Positions 45,057-50,832 of a stretch of DNA of 64,000 bases are shown here, piece after piece. Source of the DNA: Escherichia phage EP_H11. Position 1 is the stretch's first letter; each line of letters opens with the position of its first letter. The DNA lies in sequence record OP688485. One strand, written 5' to 3'. The position numbers and the translations under genes were made by a program. A model generated the notes under the pieces. That model ran no database searches, was not told the DNA's origin, and saw only the letters and a list, made by a program, of their open reading frames with translations.

Positions 45057-45227
45057 ATGGGAGAACGTCAGGAATTGACTCTTAACGATAAGATGCGTAA
45101 TGCTATGCATCGTGAGATGGAAGCAGCAATTAGCGGTCTGCGTAAGGATACCAGACGCAACCAAGATAGGGTTATTTCTAAGATCCGTAAGAAGTATCAG
45201 AAGATGGGAGTTAAATTACATGCCTGA
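45057..45227 (+). CDS. hypothetical small protein (56 aa)
   Basis: Strong AGAGGAGGA RBS just downstream of class A motif A12; below track cutoff. Confidence 0.4.
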   Translation: MGERQELTLNDKMRNAMHREMEAAISGLRKDTRRNQDRVISKIRKKYQKMGVKLHA

Positions 45228-45477
45228 TATTGATGGCCGATTAGGTGTATCGGTATATGTAGATATGGTGGTAGAGAAGGCTATCATCCATCCTGATAAC
45301 ACCATCGAAGCAACTATTCTCGAACCGGAAGATAAACGTGGCGAGAAGGTACGTGCTGATCACTACAAGCTGATCAACGAAGATGGTGTTCAGTACGCAG
45401 TCACCAGTAAAGGTAAGCTGGGTCTGGTAACTCGTACCGAGCATCAGAACTATGTCTACACGGATCTCCGCAAATGA
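45220..45477 (+). CDS. hypothetical protein
   Basis: Trimmed to the ATG at 45220; the track's upstream extension overlaps the 45057 ORF. Confidence 0.4.
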   Translation: MPDIDGRLGVSVYVDMVVEKAIIHPDNTIEATILEPEDKRGEKVRADHYKLINEDGVQYAVTSKGKLGLVTRTEHQNYVYTDLRK

Positions 45478-45659
45478 AATTCGTGCAGATCAGAGTAAAG
45501 ACGGACGACTATGGTAAGTTGTCCGAATTGCTTACCCAGATGCAGGTAGGCCATGAATTAATCGGTAACTTCGGAGATATGGCTAGCGCTATTGCTAACC
45601 CAATGACTCCGGAACAGCAGGATGTCATTATTCGTGAAGTGGGAGCACATTGCACATAA
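45474..45659 (+). CDS. hypothetical protein
   Basis: ATGA coupling. Confidence 0.4.
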   Translation: MKFVQIRVKTDDYGKLSELLTQMQVGHELIGNFGDMASAIANPMTPEQQDVIIREVGAHCT

Positions 45660-45847
45660 TGAGTATGTTTAATCCTGGGGATAAAGTCCTACACGAGAAG
45701 TCCGGTAATCATTATCATATTCTGGATGATGAAGTATATCTAGAAGAAACTAATGAACGTGCCTATGTCTATCGTGGTAAGGACTTTAAGAAATGGGTTC
45801 GACGCGCCTCCGAGATGGAGGATGGGAGATTTACTAAAATAGGGTAA
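45650..45847 (+). CDS. hypothetical protein
   Basis: ORF only. Confidence 0.4.
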   Translation: MHIMSMFNPGDKVLHEKSGNHYHILDDEVYLEETNERAYVYRGKDFKKWVRRASEMEDGRFTKIG

Positions 45848-45848
45848 T

Positions 45849-46094
45849 ATGGTTAAAGCAGCTGATGTAGATAAAATTTACTGCGGTATGCAGGATCTTA
45901 AAGAACTGGAAATGAAGTACAATAGCATCGAAGAAAGTACTGGCCATGGGATGTTGGGTATCACTATCCAGTCTCAGTACCAGGACGATGCCTTCGTTGA
46001 TGCAATACGTCCAGCAGTTCTTGCTGAGTTAGCTCGACGTATTGATGATAAGAGACTAGAGCTGGAGAAGTTAGGCGTTAGTTTCGCTGAGTAG
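45849..46094 (+). CDS. hypothetical protein
   Basis: ORF only. Confidence 0.45.
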   Translation: MVKAADVDKIYCGMQDLKELEMKYNSIEESTGHGMLGITIQSQYQDDAFVDAIRPAVLAELARRIDDKRLELEKLGVSFAE

Positions 46095-46101
46095 TATTAT
46101 C

Positions 46102-46124
46102 GATGGTGCTCTATGAGTACCATC
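46102..46124 (+). promoter_or_regulatory. class C hairpin containing GATGGTGCTCTATG
   Basis: gatggtgctc-tat-gagtaccatc (one G-U pair); the 14-mer gatggtgctctatg recurs at 50260. Confidence 0.35.
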
Positions 46125-46156
46125 TATTAATATTGCTGTTAACCTTAGGAGATATT

Positions 46157-46489
46157 ATGAGTAACATTATTGCAACTGCAGAACACGTACGTCTTGCTCG
46201 TGAACATAAACAGCAGGTAGATAAAGAGAATGCCCTGAAGTTCCTGGACGAGCACTGGAACGATGGTTTCGACGCTATCAATAAGATGCTTATCACCCAC
46301 TTCAGTGCGGATGTTTATCTTACCCAGCTGGACGAAGCATTTAAGGAAGACATAGCACTCCTGAATAAGGATGGCAAGACTACCAACACTACGGTGCTAT
46401 CTAATCTATACCGTGCTCTGGGATTTAAGGTAGGCTACTCAATGTCCACTAACTATCGCGAAGAGAGAATCTTTATCCAGCTGGAGTAA
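46157..46489 (+). CDS. hypothetical protein
   Basis: Trimmed to the ATG at 46157 behind TAGGAG; the track start lies inside a hairpin. Confidence 0.45.
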   Translation: MSNIIATAEHVRLAREHKQQVDKENALKFLDEHWNDGFDAINKMLITHFSADVYLTQLDEAFKEDIALLNKDGKTTNTTVLSNLYRALGFKVGYSMSTNYREERIFIQLE

Positions 46490-46491
46490 TT

Positions 46492-46701
46492 ATGATCATA
46501 GCTATCGGGGTGCTGATCGGAGTAGTTATGATACTCCTGTTCAGACTAGATTTGTTAAAAGAGCGCTTATCTAAACTAAACTCGGATCTTAATTCTGTTA
46601 AGAGTTTGCTGGATAAGTGTGATGATTTACGTAAAACTAAAGGAACTAACTATGAAAAAGATTCTTGCAGTTGCTCTTCTTGCCGTAAGCGGAATGGCTA
46701 A
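46492..46701 (+). CDS. hypothetical small membrane protein
   Basis: N-terminal hydrophobic IIAIGVLIGVVMILLF; overlaps the next gene by about 50 nt. Confidence 0.3.
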   Translation: MIIAIGVLIGVVMILLFRLDLLKERLSKLNSDLNSVKSLLDKCDDLRKTKGTNYEKDSCSCSSCRKRNG

Positions 46702-46870
46702 CGCATCAGTTAATATCGAATGCTTCGGTCCGGATGGTAGAGTCCTGTATAGTGAGCCTAATGCACAACGCTACGTAATCGAGACTGCAGCAACCACCAT
46801 AATCGATAGTAGTGGTAATCCAGTAGTGATCACTGCTGCGGCACCATGCATCATTACCCCGAATAAGTAG
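46652..46870 (+). CDS. putative secreted protein
   Basis: Signal peptide MKKILAVALLAVSGMANA; AAGGA RBS. Confidence 0.45.
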   Translation: MKKILAVALLAVSGMANASVNIECFGPDGRVLYSEPNAQRYVIETAATTIIDSSGNPVVITAAAPCIITPNK

Positions 46871-49069: not shown

Positions 49070-49407
49070 TGGAACAATTCCGCATTGAATTAAAGGTATG
49101 GAGCAGCCTTATCGGGGAACGCCCTCCGGAGGGAGACCCAAGATGGGAGACTGCCTACTGCATCTTACTGGATAATAACGAAGAGCACTGTACTTTCGAT
49201 AAAGAAAAGGCTACTTTGGTTACTTATGAGCGTCTGGATGAGTTAAATCTATTCGGTTTAGCTACAAGATGCCGTAATTTCCTCCGTATGGCAGACTGGG
49301 AACTGGGTTCTGTTAACATAATTAAGCTAATTGACCCTGAGTTTATCCACATAAATATAACGATAGATAATGACCCTGAGGAGTTCGGATGCCATACTAC
49401 CATGTAG
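49069..49407 (+). CDS. hypothetical protein
   Basis: ORF with coupled start. Confidence 0.5.
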   Translation: MEQFRIELKVWSSLIGERPPEGDPRWETAYCILLDNNEEHCTFDKEKATLVTYERLDELNLFGLATRCRNFLRMADWELGSVNIIKLIDPEFIHINITIDNDPEEFGCHTTM

Positions 49408-49955
49408 TTAAATCTGGAGATACGATGTCTGGTATTGCAGAATTGTATCGTTGTCGATTAGAGGATGTGGCTAAGGCTAACAAAGCTACTCACCCTAATC
49501 CTGGCCTTATTTACCCAGGTGATCGTCTGGTAATTCCAGACTCCAGATCTTCTGGTATTTATCTGACTATCAAGAATGATATGCATGTTTCTGCACTTCA
49601 TTACGATACGGCTGTAGAGCAGTTAGAGAAGCAGATAACCGATTTACTACAGACCAAAGCTCGGGTAATGAAGGATCATATGAATCGTCTGAATAATATT
49701 CAGTCTAGTCATTACCATACTCATTACCTAACTAAGGTAACTACTAAGCCAGATGGTTACCACGATACTAAACTGGATGTTCGCCAGTATTGCCAGCATT
49801 GTGGTGCTGAGCTCAATGGCATAGATCGTAAATTCTCTGATATGATACATATTGGAGTAATGAACGAAACTGGCCAGCCGATCACTAATAAGAATGGCGA
49901 AGGCCATAATGAGGATACCATATATCCTGGTATGAACTACAATAAGACATTTTAA
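49389..49955 (+). CDS. LysM domain-containing protein
   Basis: N-terminal LysM: YHVVKSGDTMSGIAELY...LIYPGDRLVIP. Confidence 0.65.
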   Translation: MPYYHVVKSGDTMSGIAELYRCRLEDVAKANKATHPNPGLIYPGDRLVIPDSRSSGIYLTIKNDMHVSALHYDTAVEQLEKQITDLLQTKARVMKDHMNRLNNIQSSHYHTHYLTKVTTKPDGYHDTKLDVRQYCQHCGAELNGIDRKFSDMIHIGVMNETGQPITNKNGEGHNEDTIYPGMNYNKTF

Positions 49956-49965
49956 GGAGATAACT

Positions 49966-50199
49966 GTGGATCAAGAATTAATGGGTGGGGAAGAGGATGT
50001 ATTGTACAGACTCTTCTGGTTCGGACCAGCTACTGATGGAGATCTTCCGTCTAAGTCAGGTGCGGCAAGTCTGGTAGATAAGGGACTAGCTACATGGTTC
50101 CAAGGTAATGGTACTTGCCCTAAGATTTACGGAGACTGCAATATGTGTATGCTTACATCCTCAGGTTTGGATGTTGCCAAAGCTAAATATATTAAATAA
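49966..50199 (+). CDS. hypothetical protein
   Basis: ORF ending immediately before class A motif A13. Confidence 0.45.
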   Translation: MDQELMGGEEDVLYRLFWFGPATDGDLPSKSGAASLVDKGLATWFQGNGTCPKIYGDCNMCMLTSSGLDVAKAKYIK

Positions 50200-50234
50200 C
50201 CGCTCTTTCTAAGGGTCGAAAGGCTGTTAAACTG
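50200..50234 (+). promoter_or_regulatory. class A motif A13
   Basis: ccgctctttctaagggtcgaaaggctgttaaactg; followed by a class C hairpin. Confidence 0.5.
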
Positions 50235-50248
50235 TAGAGGTTATTCCT

Positions 50249-50272
50249 ATAGAGCATCTGATGGTGCTCTAT
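50249..50272 (+). promoter_or_regulatory. class C hairpin containing GATGGTGCTCTATG
   Basis: atagagca-tctgatgg-tgctctat followed by gtgaa; lies between A13 and the gene at 50310. Confidence 0.35.
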
Positions 50273-50284
50273 GTGAATAGTCTT

Positions 50285-50304
50285 AGGAGATATTAGGAGA
50301 TATT
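50285..50304 (+). repeat. tandem direct repeat of a Shine-Dalgarno-containing decamer
   Basis: aggagatatt aggagatatt, then aagatATG. Confidence 0.7.
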
Positions 50305-50309
50305 AAGAT

Positions 50310-50669
50310 ATGTTTGAGAAATTAAAATCTATATTTAAAACTGTTCCAGCAATTCCCTTACTGACTAAATCGGAAGAGCGACTAGCTTATGAGAATATGA
50401 TCCGTACTGGGGACCCTACCGAATTTATCAGAATGCTGGATAGTGATGAAATCCGGATGATTCGTAAAGATACATGGACTTGGGTAAGCGCTAATGATGT
50501 AATCCATGTCTATAACGATATTTACGGTCCGGAAGTTAAGCTGGGAGGAGTAAGTGCGTTAATTGACTGTAATGGTGATGCTTACGGTCTATCTTACGAA
50601 GATGGTAAGAGAGTATATAACGCAATCTGGGACTCCTGCGACCGCTCCAGGAGGATGGCTCATGTTTAA
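50310..50669 (+). CDS. hypothetical protein
   Basis: ATG preceded by a tandemly duplicated AGGAGATATT element. Confidence 0.5.
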   Translation: MFEKLKSIFKTVPAIPLLTKSEERLAYENMIRTGDPTEFIRMLDSDEIRMIRKDTWTWVSANDVIHVYNDIYGPEVKLGGVSALIDCNGDAYGLSYEDGKRVYNAIWDSCDRSRRMAHV

Positions 50670-50832
50670 GTTACTTATTGTAAGTAGTATTGTTGCTCGG
50701 GATGCTCCATCAGTTCACTCGGTAATTGCGGAATTTGAGACTAAAGATCAAGCAGATCGTGCCTACGACAAAATGGTTGAATCTGCCAATCCTCAGTCCT
50801 GGGTATCTAACAAAGTAGTGAAACTTTACTAA
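50662..50832 (+). CDS. hypothetical small protein
   Basis: Trimmed to the ATG at 50662 behind AGGAGGA; overlaps the upstream stop. Confidence 0.4.
   Translation: MFKLLIVSSIVARDAPSVHSVIAEFETKDQADRAYDKMVESANPQSWVSNKVVKLY

What the first reader, a model, noticed from the sequence alone, without database searches (positions are those of the whole stretch)
45057..50832. Dense block of about 25 short, mostly coupled genes including secreted and membrane proteins
This region contains many 50-180 codon genes with overlapping start/stop codons, including a signal-peptide protein (46652), small membrane proteins, zinc-ribbon proteins and a LysM protein. It resembles phage host-takeover regions where novel inhibitors of host functions and defence systems are usually found.
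Basis: inference. Interest (0 to 1): 0.4.

Follow-up and report, generated by a model that had tools for sequence, protein, structure and literature searches.

The report
Phage accessory small-gene block
This stretch of an E. coli phage genome holds 21 real, tightly packed small genes of unknown function that relatives swap in and out (one slot holds a known anti-immunity gene in a sister phage), so it is an ordinary but useful place to look for new host or defence inhibitors, and an unclassified structured RNA lies right next to it.

Summary
Window 45057-50832 holds 21 (not about 25) + strand genes with a median length of 75 aa. It is 95.5% coding, and 10 of 20 junctions overlap. There is one signal-peptide protein, three small membrane proteins, one double-CxxC protein and one LysM protein.

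Comparison with Escherichia phage IME392 (93% nt identity) gives pN/pS of 0-0.25 for 19 of the 21 genes, so they are real. The phage belongs to the YerA41/SP-15-like lineage (thymidine-hypermodified DNA, own multisubunit RNA polymerase).

The block lies in the non-structural arm. It is headed by a 36-nt promoter-like motif that recurs 16 times in the window and never in the structural module.

Across eleven related contigs, gene content is a mosaic. About two thirds of the genes (g1-g4, g6-g8, g10-g12, g14 N-part, g15, g17, g20) are kept wherever the contig covers them. The rest are swapped or lost. Gene g5 is replaced exactly, ORF for ORF, by a Sequestin (PF21825) anti-Thoeris sponge in one relative.

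A PinA-like Lon inhibitor and a NADAR gene flank the region. No gene inside the block has a demonstrated function, so "host-takeover/anti-defence island" is plausible but only indirectly supported.

Just past the block (50827-~51340) lies a conserved about 500-nt structured RNA with 26 covarying pairs and no Rfam family.

The parts
45005..45040 (+). Promoter-like motif A, copy heading g1-g19 (CCGCTCTTTATAGGGTTCCAAAGGCTGTTAAAGTGT). It contains TG-T-TAAAGT, which resembles an extended -10 element.
   Evidence: 16 copies in the window, all on the + strand and 20-45 nt upstream of start codons. 25 copies in IME392, all on the non-structural arm. This interval is 100% identical to IME392.
45057..45227 (+). 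g1, 56 aa, basic (pI 10.7)
   Evidence: AGGAGG RBS; pN/pS 0.15; present in 7 relatives.
45220..45477 (+). g2, 85 aa
   Evidence: RBS; pN/pS 0.17.
45474..45659 (+). g3, 61 aa
   Evidence: ATGA overlap with g2; pN/pS 0.05.
45659..45847 (+). g4, 62 aa
   Evidence: Identical protein on 8 public contigs; 6 synonymous and 0 non-synonymous changes against IME392.
45849..46094 (+). g5, 81 aa, phrog_5415; predicted helical hairpin. This is an exchangeable cassette slot.
   Evidence: PHROG E 8.6e-20. AF2 pLDDT 83. Replaced exactly (window 45862-46087) by a PF21825 Sequestin gene in L005. Homologues occur in unrelated lambdoid and Erwinia phages.
46102..46124 (+). Hairpin after g5. It shares the 14-mer GATGGTGCTCTATG with the hairpin at 50249-50272.
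46157..46489 (+). g6, 110 aa
   Evidence: AGGAG RBS; called as 110 aa in relatives; pN/pS 0.18.
46492..46701 (+). g7, 69 aa, N-terminal transmembrane helix
   Evidence: Hydropathy 2.81; intact in all relatives that cover it.
46652..46870 (+). g8, 72 aa, Sec-type signal peptide; mature part has 2 Cys
   Evidence: Sequence and hydropathy; pN/pS 0.19.
46879..47058 (+). g9, 59 aa, acidic, phrog_8773; variable gene
   Evidence: PHROG E 1.3e-18; absent from L006; 5 phage records.
47061..47348 (+). g10, 95 aa; present in every contig that covers it
   Evidence: Present in all relatives including the divergent clade.
47351..47455 (+). g11, 34 aa, membrane peptide
   Evidence: Hydropathy 2.61; conserved at 88-97% in all relatives.
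47449..47646 (+). g12, 65 aa, acidic; present in every contig that covers it
   Evidence: 6 synonymous and 0 non-synonymous changes; 86-100% identity in all relatives.
47655..47681 (+). Hairpin followed by CTATGTGAA (first of two copies)
47706..47894 (+). g13, 62 aa, acidic; variable gene
   Evidence: AGGAGG RBS; replaced by unrelated genes in L006.
47884..48303 (+). g14, 139 aa. The N-terminal module matches phrog_12031. The C-terminal module has two CxxC pairs.
   Evidence: PHROG E 3.2e-16. Two CxxC pairs. Split into two genes in L006, and the C-terminal module is swapped in L005, L014, L016 and L018.
48306..48845 (+). g15, 179 aa; present in every contig that covers it. It carries a widespread uncharacterised domain (LHPxT...KYG...W...HIxKGDPxDVANYCAF).
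   Evidence: 3,716 cluster representatives at E<=0.001 and no Pfam model. Identity of 55-88% among relatives, the most divergent of the conserved genes. The AF2 model has low confidence.
48842..49069 (+). g16, 75 aa, membrane protein; variable gene
   Evidence: Hydropathy. Among contigs that cover the position, found only in the window, IME392 and L006. 1 synonymous and 7 non-synonymous changes.
49069..49407 (+). g17, 112 aa, acidic; present in every contig that covers it
49389..49955 (+). g18, 188 aa. N-terminal LysM domain, no signal peptide, no catalytic domain; variable gene.
   Evidence: Pfam E 1.4e-11; PDB hits to LysM only; absent from L007 and L008.
49966..50199 (+). g19, 77 aa, phrog_4365; variable gene
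   Evidence: Found only in the window and IME392 among relatives. Homologues in 154 phage records, mostly Salmonella and Klebsiella phages of about 157 kb.
50200..50235 (+). Promoter-like motif A, second copy, heading g20-g21 and the RNA element
   Evidence: The intergenic stretch 50200-50309 is 100% identical to IME392. The g18-g19 deletion in L007 ends exactly here.
50249..50277 (+). Hairpin followed by CTATGTGAA (second copy)
50310..50669 (+). g20, 119 aa; present in every contig that covers it
50662..50832 (+). g21, 56 aa, phrog_7747; variable gene
   Evidence: AGGAGG RBS; replaced in L006; homologues in T4-like Citrobacter phages.
50827..51340 (+). Conserved structured non-coding RNA candidate, immediately 3' of the block. 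It is the largest ORF-free gap in the window.
   Evidence: 97.9% identical to IME392 while neighbouring genes show pS of 0.08-0.14. Folding z-score -3.6. In a 6-sequence alignment there are 141 pairs, 95.4% of cells paired and 26 pairs with compensatory changes, against 2-5 in slid controls and 0 of 500 shuffles. No Rfam hit at E<=1 and no tRNA or tmRNA.
40582..41001 (+). Context: PinA-like Lon protease inhibitor, inside a 950-bp segment that is missing from relative L005
   Evidence: Pfam PF10465, E 3.6e-9, 37.1 bits against a cut-off of 27. L005 lacks window 40612-41563.
53010..53669 (+). Context: NADAR-domain protein, a candidate counter to DarT DNA ADP-ribosylation
   Evidence: Pfam PF08719, E 7.4e-27. 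Orphan phage NADARs neutralise DarTG1 (PMC11257639; title and abstract only).

Best explanation
The region is a pre-late (early or middle) accessory-gene block of an IME392-like E. coli myovirus.

Expression. An RNA polymerase holoenzyme that recognises the phage-specific motif A starts about 13 nt upstream of g1. Motif A has a sigma-70-like 'TG-n-TAnnnT' element plus a conserved upstream CCGCTCTTT...AAAGGC part. Transcription would give a polycistronic mRNA of about 5.1 kb covering g1-g19. A second copy of motif A at 50200 would drive g20, g21 and the structured RNA. Overlapping or near-abutting stops and starts couple translation along the message.

Products. Seventeen are small soluble proteins, mostly acidic. 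Three are small membrane proteins and one is a small periplasmic protein. The most likely mode of action is stoichiometric binding to host proteins, host signalling molecules or envelope components. That would mean inhibition of host functions and defence systems, and possibly exclusion of superinfecting phages. Catalysis is less likely.

Evolution. The block changes by exchange of whole ORFs at fixed slots.

Shown: the genes are real, how they are arranged, where the motif occurs, and how gene content varies between relatives. Inferred: timing of expression, the transcription start point, and every protein function.
For: Gene reality.
- pN/pS of 0-0.25 for 19 of 21 genes, against about 0.5-2.7 for off-frame and antisense ORFs.
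- A ribosome-binding site for nearly every start.

Position.
- The block lies in the non-structural arm. The structural and lysis genes are on the other strand, at IME392 61-104 kb.

Motif A.
- 16 copies in the window, with T-12, A-11 and T-7 invariant.
- 25 copies in IME392, none in the structural module, and a cluster at the start of the arm.
- It also precedes the topoisomerase, DNA polymerase, ligase and exonuclease genes.

Gene flux.
- g5 is exchanged for Sequestin with breakpoints at the ORF ends. The Sequestin copy scores Pfam E 6.4e-17 and keeps R12, E16, Q50 and R64 at the spacing of the published pocket residues (bioRxiv 10.1101/2025.07.12.664507).
- g9, g13, g16, g18, g19 and g21 are present or absent depending on the relative, and the g14 C-terminal module is swapped.
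- The variable genes have homologues scattered in unrelated enterobacterial phages.

Neighbourhood.
- PinA-like inhibitor, NADAR, and Lar in L007.
Against: No gene in 45057-50832 matches any known inhibitor or anti-defence family in Pfam, PHROGs (function-annotated families), NCBIfam or the PDB.

The Sequestin and Lar genes are in relatives, not in this window.

About two thirds of the genes are conserved wherever covered. Of these, g8, g10-g12, g14, g15, g17 and g20 are also found in the divergent clade. This fits phage-intrinsic roles as well as it fits host interaction.

The block shares its promoter type with replication genes, so it is not marked out as an immediate-early takeover unit.

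There are no expression, toxicity or interaction data.
Confidence: 0.6

Rival explanations
1. Most of the block encodes small phage-intrinsic factors. These could be accessory subunits or regulators of the phage replication, transcription or DNA-hypermodification machinery. They would be needed in every host rather than directed against host functions.
For: The block directly follows five glycosyltransferase-like genes and uses the same motif A as the replication genes. g8, g10-g12, g14 N-part, g15, g17 and g20 are kept even in the divergent clade under purifying selection. g15 carries a very widespread phage domain.
Against: No similarity to any replication, transcription or modification family. 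Seven to eight genes are dispensable in natural relatives. One slot carries a bona fide anti-defence gene in a relative. Four of the proteins are membrane or periplasmic.
Confidence: 0.2
2. The membrane, periplasmic and LysM genes (g7, g8, g11, g16, g18) form an envelope module. It would act in superinfection exclusion or in control of lysis timing, and the rest of the block would be unrelated cargo.
For: One signal peptide, three transmembrane peptides and one peptidoglycan-binding LysM domain lie within 3.3 kb. Small early membrane proteins mediate exclusion in T-even phages (established knowledge: T4 Imm and Sp).
Against: g18 has no signal peptide or transmembrane helix, so it is not obviously exported. 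g16 and g18 are missing from several relatives. A 'putative lysis protein' is annotated at the end of the late operon in IME392. There is no homology to Imm, Sp, holins or spanins.
Confidence: 0.15
3. The ORFs are largely functionless or selfish filler, or annotation artefacts.
For: Ten of the 21 have no PHROG match at E<=0.01, and only six match a family strongly. IME392's depositors annotated only three of them.
Against: Strong purifying selection, intact frames in up to 11 relatives and consistent ribosome-binding sites. Controls in other frames behave differently.
Confidence: 0.03

Closest known systems
Hyperplastic or accessory small-ORF regions of T4-type phages, and early 'host-takeover' gene clusters of large lytic phages
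   Same: Dozens of co-oriented, tightly coupled genes of 30-190 codons. They lie in the non-structural part of the genome. Content varies between close relatives, and homologues are scattered in unrelated phages. Known host or defence inhibitors sit among ORFans (here PinA-like and NADAR nearby, Sequestin and Lar in relatives).
   Different: The phage lineage differs (YerA41/SP-15-like, thymidine-hypermodified, own multisubunit RNA polymerase). The promoter motif differs. About two thirds of the block is conserved wherever covered. No member has been tested.
Sequestin (Pfam PF21825), a phage sponge for the Thoeris signal 3'cADPR
   Same: A Sequestin gene occupies exactly the g5 slot in the sister contig L005. 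g5 is similar in size (81 against 74 aa) and is predicted to be all-helical.
   Different: g5 has no sequence or profile similarity to Sequestin. It lacks the R/E/Q/R pocket pattern and has no significant structural match. Sharing a slot is circumstantial.
T4 middle promoters (MotA box plus a sigma-70 -10 element) and extended -10 promoters
   Same: Motif A has an invariant TG, one base, then TAnnnT. It has a conserved upstream element in place of a TTGACA -35 box, and it sits 20-45 nt upstream of start codons.
   Different: The upstream element (CCGCTCTTT...AAAGGC) is unrelated to the MotA box. The polymerase and sigma factor that read it are unknown. Several copies are followed by a hairpin with a T-run. 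Its 5' part also matches, from memory, the boxA core CGCTCTTT of lambda nut and rrn antitermination sites.
GOLLD and ROOL, large ornate RNAs of phages and prophages that are often found beside tRNA genes (PMC12286853)
   Same: The RNA element next to the block is large (about 500 nt), has many helices, is phage-borne and non-coding. It has a partial paralogue beside the tRNA-Met and tRNA-Arg genes of IME392.
   Different: No match to the GOLLD or ROOL models, or to any other Rfam 15 model, at E<=1. It is smaller than GOLLD. The host group is different. Oligomerisation is unknown.

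Membership tests
Phage accessory or host-takeover small-gene region | Many short, co-oriented, tightly packed genes that are real | tested here: met
   21 genes, 95.5% coding, 17 of 20 junctions overlapping or separated by 10 nt or less. pN/pS of 0-0.25 for 19 of 21 genes.
Phage accessory or host-takeover small-gene region | Gene content varies between close relatives, with homologues scattered in unrelated phages | tested here: met
   Presence/absence matrix over 11 relatives. Exact cassette swap at g5. tblastn distributions.
Phage accessory or host-takeover small-gene region | Expressed before late genes from early or middle promoters | tested here: inconclusive
   Motif A heads the block and is confined to the non-structural arm. 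No transcript data exist for this phage.
Phage accessory or host-takeover small-gene region | Contains proteins that inhibit host functions or defence systems | tested here: not met
   No gene in 45057-50832 matches a known inhibitor family. Known families occur only in the flanks (PinA-like; NADAR) or in relatives (Sequestin and Lar). Function itself cannot be tested with these tools.
Sequestin (PF21825), for g5 | Match to the PF21825 profile and the conserved R/E/Q/R pocket residues | tested here: not met
   No Pfam hit for g5. BLASTP and hhalign against the L005 Sequestin are negative. The L005 allele does meet the criterion (E 6.4e-17; R12, E16, Q50, R64).
LysM peptidoglycan-binding proteins, for g18 | LysM domain above the Pfam gathering score | tested here: met
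   44.6 bits against a cut-off of 20.9, residues 5-50. PDB LysM chains match.
Endolysin, for g18 | A catalytic muramidase, amidase or peptidase domain | tested here: not met
   PHROG endolysin hits cover only the LysM part, and no catalytic domain was found.
MazG-like dATP/dGTP pyrophosphohydrolase (PF04447), for g15 | Match to the profile and the acidic metal-binding motifs | tested here: not met
   No Pfam hit for g15. Only 2 of 147 family members carry PF04447, apparently as a fused domain. The AF2 model is too poor for a fold test.
Sigma-70-type extended -10 promoter, for motif A | TG, one base, then TAnnnT at a fixed distance upstream of genes | tested here: met
   16 of 16 copies keep TG-T-TA...T.
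Sigma-70-type promoter, for motif A | A TTGACA-like -35 hexamer 16-18 nt upstream | tested here: not met
   None of the 16 motif A copies is among the sites the consensus scan reported in 43000-53000. Sigma-70-type sites are fewer than in shuffles there (9 against 23.5). The -35 position holds CCGCTCTTT instead.
Any described RNA family (Rfam 15, including GOLLD, ROOL, group I and II introns, RNase P, tmRNA, 6S), for the element at 50827-51340 | Covariance-model match | tested here: not met
   No match at gathering score or at E<=1. ARAGORN is negative.

The most novel reading that the evidence does not exclude
The block and its 3' flank would be a counter-defence island with two unrecognised components. 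The first is the g5/phrog_5415 family, a helical-hairpin protein that fills exactly the slot taken by a Sequestin 3'cADPR sponge in a sister phage. It would be a new, unrelated inhibitor or sponge of a host immune pathway. The second is the RNA of about 500 nt at 50827-51340, which has a paralogue beside the phage tRNA genes. It would be a new class of large structured phage RNA that acts in counter-defence or in phage RNA metabolism.
Probability: 0.3. Interest if true: 0.7.

Novelty: new member of a known kind. Interest (0 to 1): 0.42.

Why it matters
Blocks of small phage genes are the main source of newly discovered inhibitors of bacterial immunity and of host machinery. This one comes from a poorly sampled lineage with hypermodified DNA. 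No relative of the sequences tried was found in the IMG/VR or JGI collections.

The comparative map made here turns an undifferentiated list of ORFans into a ranked one:
- g5 shares its slot with Sequestin.
- g9, g13, g16, g18, g19 and g21 are exchangeable cassettes.
- g15 is a fast-diverging conserved gene that carries a domain found in more than 3,700 protein clusters and has no Pfam model.

The work also exposes the lineage's promoter-like motif and a structured RNA with strong covariation and no known family. Each of these can be tested directly.

Tried and rejected
Searches for relatives that found nothing.
- IMG/VR with the neighbouring glycosyltransferase.
- IMG/VR with the motif A pattern.
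- IMG/VR and JGI metagenomes with three conserved stretches of the RNA.
- The GTDB genome scan gave four hits. This is in the range I estimate for chance (my arithmetic from pattern degeneracy and collection size, not a tool output). None shows extended similarity.
- Relatives came only from exact or near-exact protein look-ups in Logan and ENA assemblies.

Protein function.
- Pfam, PHROGs and NCBIfam gave only LysM and families of unknown function.
- PDB sequence searches of g14, g15 and g19 were empty.
- The AF2 model of g15 had pLDDT 54, so I did not use it for fold search.
- The g5 model (pLDDT 83) matched only generic helical hairpins, with no Foldseek hit at E<=0.001 in the PDB or BFVD.
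- g5 as a divergent Sequestin was rejected.

RNA element.
- tRNA and tmRNA were excluded by ARAGORN, and every family in Rfam 15 by cmscan. That covers the families I had in mind: RNase P RNA, group I and II introns, 6S, GOLLD and ROOL.
- An intron reading was also rejected because g21 matches its PHROG family nearly full-length, and because both flanking genes are replaced in L006 while the element stays.
- The antisense 92-aa ORF over it (51172-51450) is not supported (pN/pS 0.58 on 8 changes).
- A minus-strand RNA is disfavoured, because the many G-U pairs and the C>T and A>G changes pair only on the + strand.

Motif A.
- I considered a boxA/nut-like antitermination signal. Its 5' part equals the boxA core as I remember it, and several copies precede a hairpin with a T-run.
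- I rank this below the promoter reading. The -10-like positions are invariant and the motif sits at a fixed short distance from start codons. The question is not excluded.

Other.
- 'CTATGTGAA' as a recurrent motif was rejected. There are only two exact copies, fewer than chance allows with one mismatch.

Full report
**Identity of the genome**

The only nucleotide match in the phage collection is Escherichia phage vB_EcoM_IME392 (MH719082.1, 116,460 bp). The window is colinear with it at about 93% identity from window 35104 to 56831. The alignment runs across the arbitrary ends of that linear record.

The window encodes a topoisomerase II, a helicase, a PolA-type DNA polymerase, an NAD-dependent ligase and two fragments of a multisubunit RNA polymerase beta/beta'. 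The nearest relatives of the RNA polymerase fragment are Acinetobacter phage Ab1-TPeters, Ralstonia phage RP13, Rhizobium and Vibrio phages, and Yersinia phage YerA41.

A 2025 paper lists IME392 among phages whose DNA polymerase resembles that of YerA41, together with phages carrying oligosaccharide-hypermodified thymidine such as SP-15 and Carin-5 (PMC12686479).

In IME392 the structural and lysis genes lie on one strand at 61-104 kb. All other genes lie on the opposite strand. The finding sits in this non-structural arm. It directly follows five glycosyltransferase-like genes (41609-45002). It lies upstream of an exonuclease, a dUTPase and a dCTP deaminase.

**Checking the observation**

ORF listing and a start-codon/RBS analysis give 21 + strand genes in 45057-50832. 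Independent gene calls on related public contigs agree with this model.

| Property | Value |
|---|---|
| Coding fraction | 95.5% |
| Median gene length | 75 aa |
| Junctions that overlap | 10 of 20 |
| Junctions with gaps of 10 nt or less | 7 of 20 |
| Larger gaps | 62, 59 and 110 nt |

Against IME392, 19 of the 21 genes show pN/pS between 0 and 0.25. The exceptions are g5 (0.46), g20 (0.36) and g16 (1 synonymous, 7 non-synonymous changes). Off-frame extensions and antisense ORFs give about 0.5-2.7 or carry stops. tblastn finds a full-length match without stops to every gene in IME392 (96% of g14).

- g8 (46652) has a Sec-type signal peptide.
- g7, g11 and g16 are small membrane proteins.
- g18 has a LysM domain (Pfam E 1.4e-11).
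- Only g14 has the two CxxC pairs of a zinc ribbon.

The count of 'about 25' is too high.

**What the proteins are**

Pfam finds only LysM. NCBIfam also finds only LysM.

PHROGs places g5, g9, the N-terminal part of g14, g15, g19 and g21 in families of unknown function. Four further genes (g7, g10, g13, g18) have only weak matches or matches to the LysM part, and ten genes have no match at E<=0.01. PDB sequence searches add nothing.

g15 has a conserved core (LHPxT...KYG...W...HIxKGDPxDVANYCAF). A profile search found this core in 3,716 cluster representatives, in proteins of 98-615 aa. It has no Pfam model of its own, and only sporadic partner domains were found. Its AlphaFold2 model is all-helical but of low confidence (pLDDT 54).

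g5 is predicted with good confidence (pLDDT 83) to be a helical hairpin. Foldseek against the PDB and BFVD gives no significant match.

**Regulatory layout**

Intergenic regions across the window share two motifs.

Motif A has the consensus CCGCtctTTtnanGnctcnAAAGGCTGTTAAanTGT.
- It occurs 16 times in the window, always on the + strand, 20-45 nt upstream of a start codon.
- In IME392 it occurs 25 times, all on the non-structural arm. A cluster lies at the beginning of that arm, and there is no copy in the structural module.
- Its 3' part reads TG-T-TAnnnT. The three positions that matter most for a sigma-70-type -10 element are invariant in all 16 copies, while the three between them vary.
- I therefore read motif A as a promoter of the extended -10 type, with a phage-specific upstream element. 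This resembles the architecture of a T4 middle promoter. This is inference.
- Which polymerase or sigma factor reads it is unknown. [quoted passage not shown]
- An alternative is a boxA/nut-like antitermination signal. The 5' part equals the boxA core CGCTCTTT as I remember it, and several copies precede a hairpin with a T-run.

Motif B (AT-rich box, then AAAGCCCGTTCTTTTGGGTGG, then a variable GC hairpin) occurs five times in the window and is also absent from the structural module.

The consensus scan found 9 sigma-70-type sites in 43000-53000 against 23.5 expected from shuffles.

Within the finding, motif A at 45005-45040 heads g1-g19. A second copy at 50200-50235 heads g20 and g21. A third at 51597-51632 heads the next small genes. 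The block therefore shares its control element with the topoisomerase, DNA polymerase, ligase and exonuclease genes.

**Comparison with relatives**

IMG/VR and JGI scans found nothing. Homology searches and exact-protein look-ups in Logan and ENA assemblies recovered eleven related contigs from different sequencing runs. A presence/absence matrix and DNA alignments show a mosaic.

| Gene(s) | Pattern among relatives |
|---|---|
| g1-g4, g6, g7 | Kept in every contig that covers them (all from the window's own clade) |
| g8, g10-g12, g14 N-part, g15, g17, g20 | Kept in every contig that covers them, including the divergent clade (L006, L009) |
| g15 | Most divergent of the conserved genes (55-88% identity) |
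| g9, g13, g21 | Missing or replaced in L006 |
| g16 | Found only in the window, IME392 and L006 among contigs covering the position |
| g18 (LysM) | Found in the window, IME392 and L006; absent from L007 and L008 |
| g19 | Found only in the window and IME392; absent from L006, L007 and L008 |
| g18-g19 deletion in L007 | Ends exactly at the start of motif A |
| Extra 96-aa gene | Between g10 and g12 in L008 and L019 |
| g14 C-terminal module | Swapped in four contigs; the gene is split in L006 |

The clearest case is g5. In contig L005, DNA homology with the window stops at 45861 and resumes at 46088. These are the first and last few bases of the ORF. Between them lies an unrelated 74-aa gene.

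That gene matches Pfam PF21825 (E 6.4e-17). The family is now named Sequestin. Ten of 13 tested members inhibited type I Thoeris, and a purified member binds the signal 3'cADPR (bioRxiv 10.1101/2025.07.12.664507). The L005 protein keeps R12, E16, Q50 and R64 at the spacing of the published pocket residues.

g5 itself is unrelated to Sequestin. It is the commoner allele, present in eight of the nine related sequences that cover the slot.

The variable genes have homologues in unrelated phages, all annotated as hypothetical:
- g5 in lambdoid Citrobacter and Klebsiella phages and in Erwinia phages.
- g19 in 154 records, mostly Salmonella and Klebsiella phages of about 157 kb.
- g9 in five records.
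- g21 in T4-like Citrobacter phages.

**Neighbourhood**

Four kilobases upstream, a 139-aa gene (40582-41001) matches the PinA Lon-protease-inhibitor family above Pfam's threshold. It lies in a 950-bp segment that L005 lacks.

Two kilobases downstream, 53010-53669 encodes a NADAR-domain protein (E 7.4e-27). Orphan phage NADARs neutralise the DarTG1 defence system (PMC11257639; title and abstract only).

In L007, a Lar restriction-alleviation homologue follows the h2 position.

**Interpretation**

The evidence supports a pre-late accessory block whose products most likely act by binding host components.

It rests on context, however: position, shared promoter type, gene flux, one allelic anti-defence gene and known inhibitors nearby. 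It does not rest on any identified function inside the block.

About two thirds of the block is conserved wherever covered, so those genes could equally serve the phage's own replication, transcription or DNA-modification machinery. The membrane and periplasmic proteins could form an exclusion or envelope module. I put 0.6 on the host-interaction/counter-defence reading.

**The RNA element next to the block**

The largest ORF-free gap in the window (50833-51361) begins at the stop codon of g21.
- It is 97.9% identical to IME392, although neighbouring genes show synonymous divergence of 0.08-0.14.
- It folds better than shuffled controls (z -3.6 on the + strand).
- It is kept in L006 while both flanking genes are replaced there.
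- In a six-sequence alignment (A2), RNAalifold predicts 141 pairs. 95.4% of cells are paired, and 26 pairs carry compensatory double changes. Slid controls give 2-5 such pairs, and none of 500 shuffles reaches the observed value.
- One 14-bp helix has three different sequences in three lineages.
- The G-U pairs, and the C>T and A>G changes, pair only on the + strand.
- There is no tRNA or tmRNA, and no Rfam 15 family matches even at E<=1.
- nhmmer finds a partial paralogue (model positions 275-464, E 6e-16) in IME392. It lies just downstream of a motif A copy and next to tRNA-Met and tRNA-Arg genes, outside this window.

This is a candidate new family of large structured phage RNA. The sample is six sequences from two clades, so the statistics are indicative rather than final. 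Its function is unknown.

**Verdict**

The finding itself is a real but ordinary example of a known kind of phage genome region, in an under-sampled lineage. Its value lies in the ranked candidates (g5 first), the promoter-like motif and the adjacent RNA.

Noticed in passing
window 50827-51340 (+): Conserved structured non-coding element of about 500 nt directly after the block. It has 26 covarying base pairs over six sequences and no Rfam family. It is retained in a relative where both flanking genes are replaced.
   Followed up: partly
L003 45287-45800 (IME392 record about 57,290-57,800, minus strand), outside the window: Partial paralogue of the RNA element (nhmmer E 6e-16). It lies in an ORF-free stretch of about 550 nt directly downstream of a motif A copy and next to tRNA-Met and tRNA-Arg genes.
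   Followed up: partly
window 3033, 6382, 7223, 9564, 11303, 13439, 15295, 18879, 22480, 32906, 38067, 45024, 50219, 51616, 54331, 55406 (+): Sixteen copies of a 36-nt intergenic motif (CCGCTCTTT..AAAGGCTGTTAAnnTGT) with an invariant TG-n-TAnnnT. It is probably the lineage's pre-late promoter. Its 5' part resembles the boxA antitermination core as I remember it.
   Followed up: partly
window 2217-2300, 24960-25060, 28808-28880, 33023-33095, 36521-36595 (+): A second recurrent intergenic motif: TTATTTTTCAAATAA, then AAAGCCCGTTCTTTTGGGTGG, then a GC hairpin whose stem differs between copies. It heads other small-gene clusters and the unit containing an RNA polymerase subunit gene. It may be a second promoter class with a conserved leader.
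   Followed up: partly
window 41609-45002 (+), with 56040-57404: Five consecutive glycosyltransferase-like genes (DUF7217; phrogs 4603, 2111, 2518, 1962), plus a phosphopantetheine-binding carrier protein at 40053-40307 and dUTPase and dCTP deaminase genes downstream. This fits the sugar hypermodification of thymidine proposed for this lineage.
   Followed up: partly
window 53010-53669 (+): NADAR-domain protein (Pfam E 7.4e-27). Orphan phage NADARs are reported to neutralise the DarTG1 defence system.
   Followed up: partly
window 40582-41001 (+), within 40612-41563: PinA-like Lon protease inhibitor (PF10465, 37 bits). It lies in a 950-bp segment with two further small genes that is absent from relative L005. 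This is a second variable spot.
   Followed up: partly
window 48306-48845 (+): The conserved core of g15 defines a large uncharacterised domain family: 3,716 representatives at 50% clustering, no Pfam model, and invariant H, K-G-D and D-V-A-N-Y-C-A-F residues.
   Followed up: partly
window 43000-53000: Consensus sigma-70 promoter-like sites are fewer than in shuffled sequence (9 found, 23.5 expected).
   Followed up: no
window 46102-46124, 47655-47681, 50249-50277 (+): Three related intergenic hairpins that lack a T-run. Two share the 14-mer GATGGTGCTCTATG and two are followed by CTATGTGAA. They sit after g5, after g12 and before g20. They could be RNA processing or stabilising sites, or recombination points.
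   Followed up: no
window 51254-51258: The 5-nt loop of a GC-rich hairpin in the RNA element differs completely between the window (GGCAG) and IME392 (CCGCC), while the stem is identical. The IME392 loop differs by one base from the reverse complement of the window loop (CTGCC), which would fit a loop inversion.
   Followed up: no
L007 4955-5254: A relative carries a Lar restriction-alleviation homologue (PF14354, E 9e-7) at the position of the window's 50-aa gene at 51837-51989. Its h2 homologue is extended to 180 aa.
   Followed up: partly
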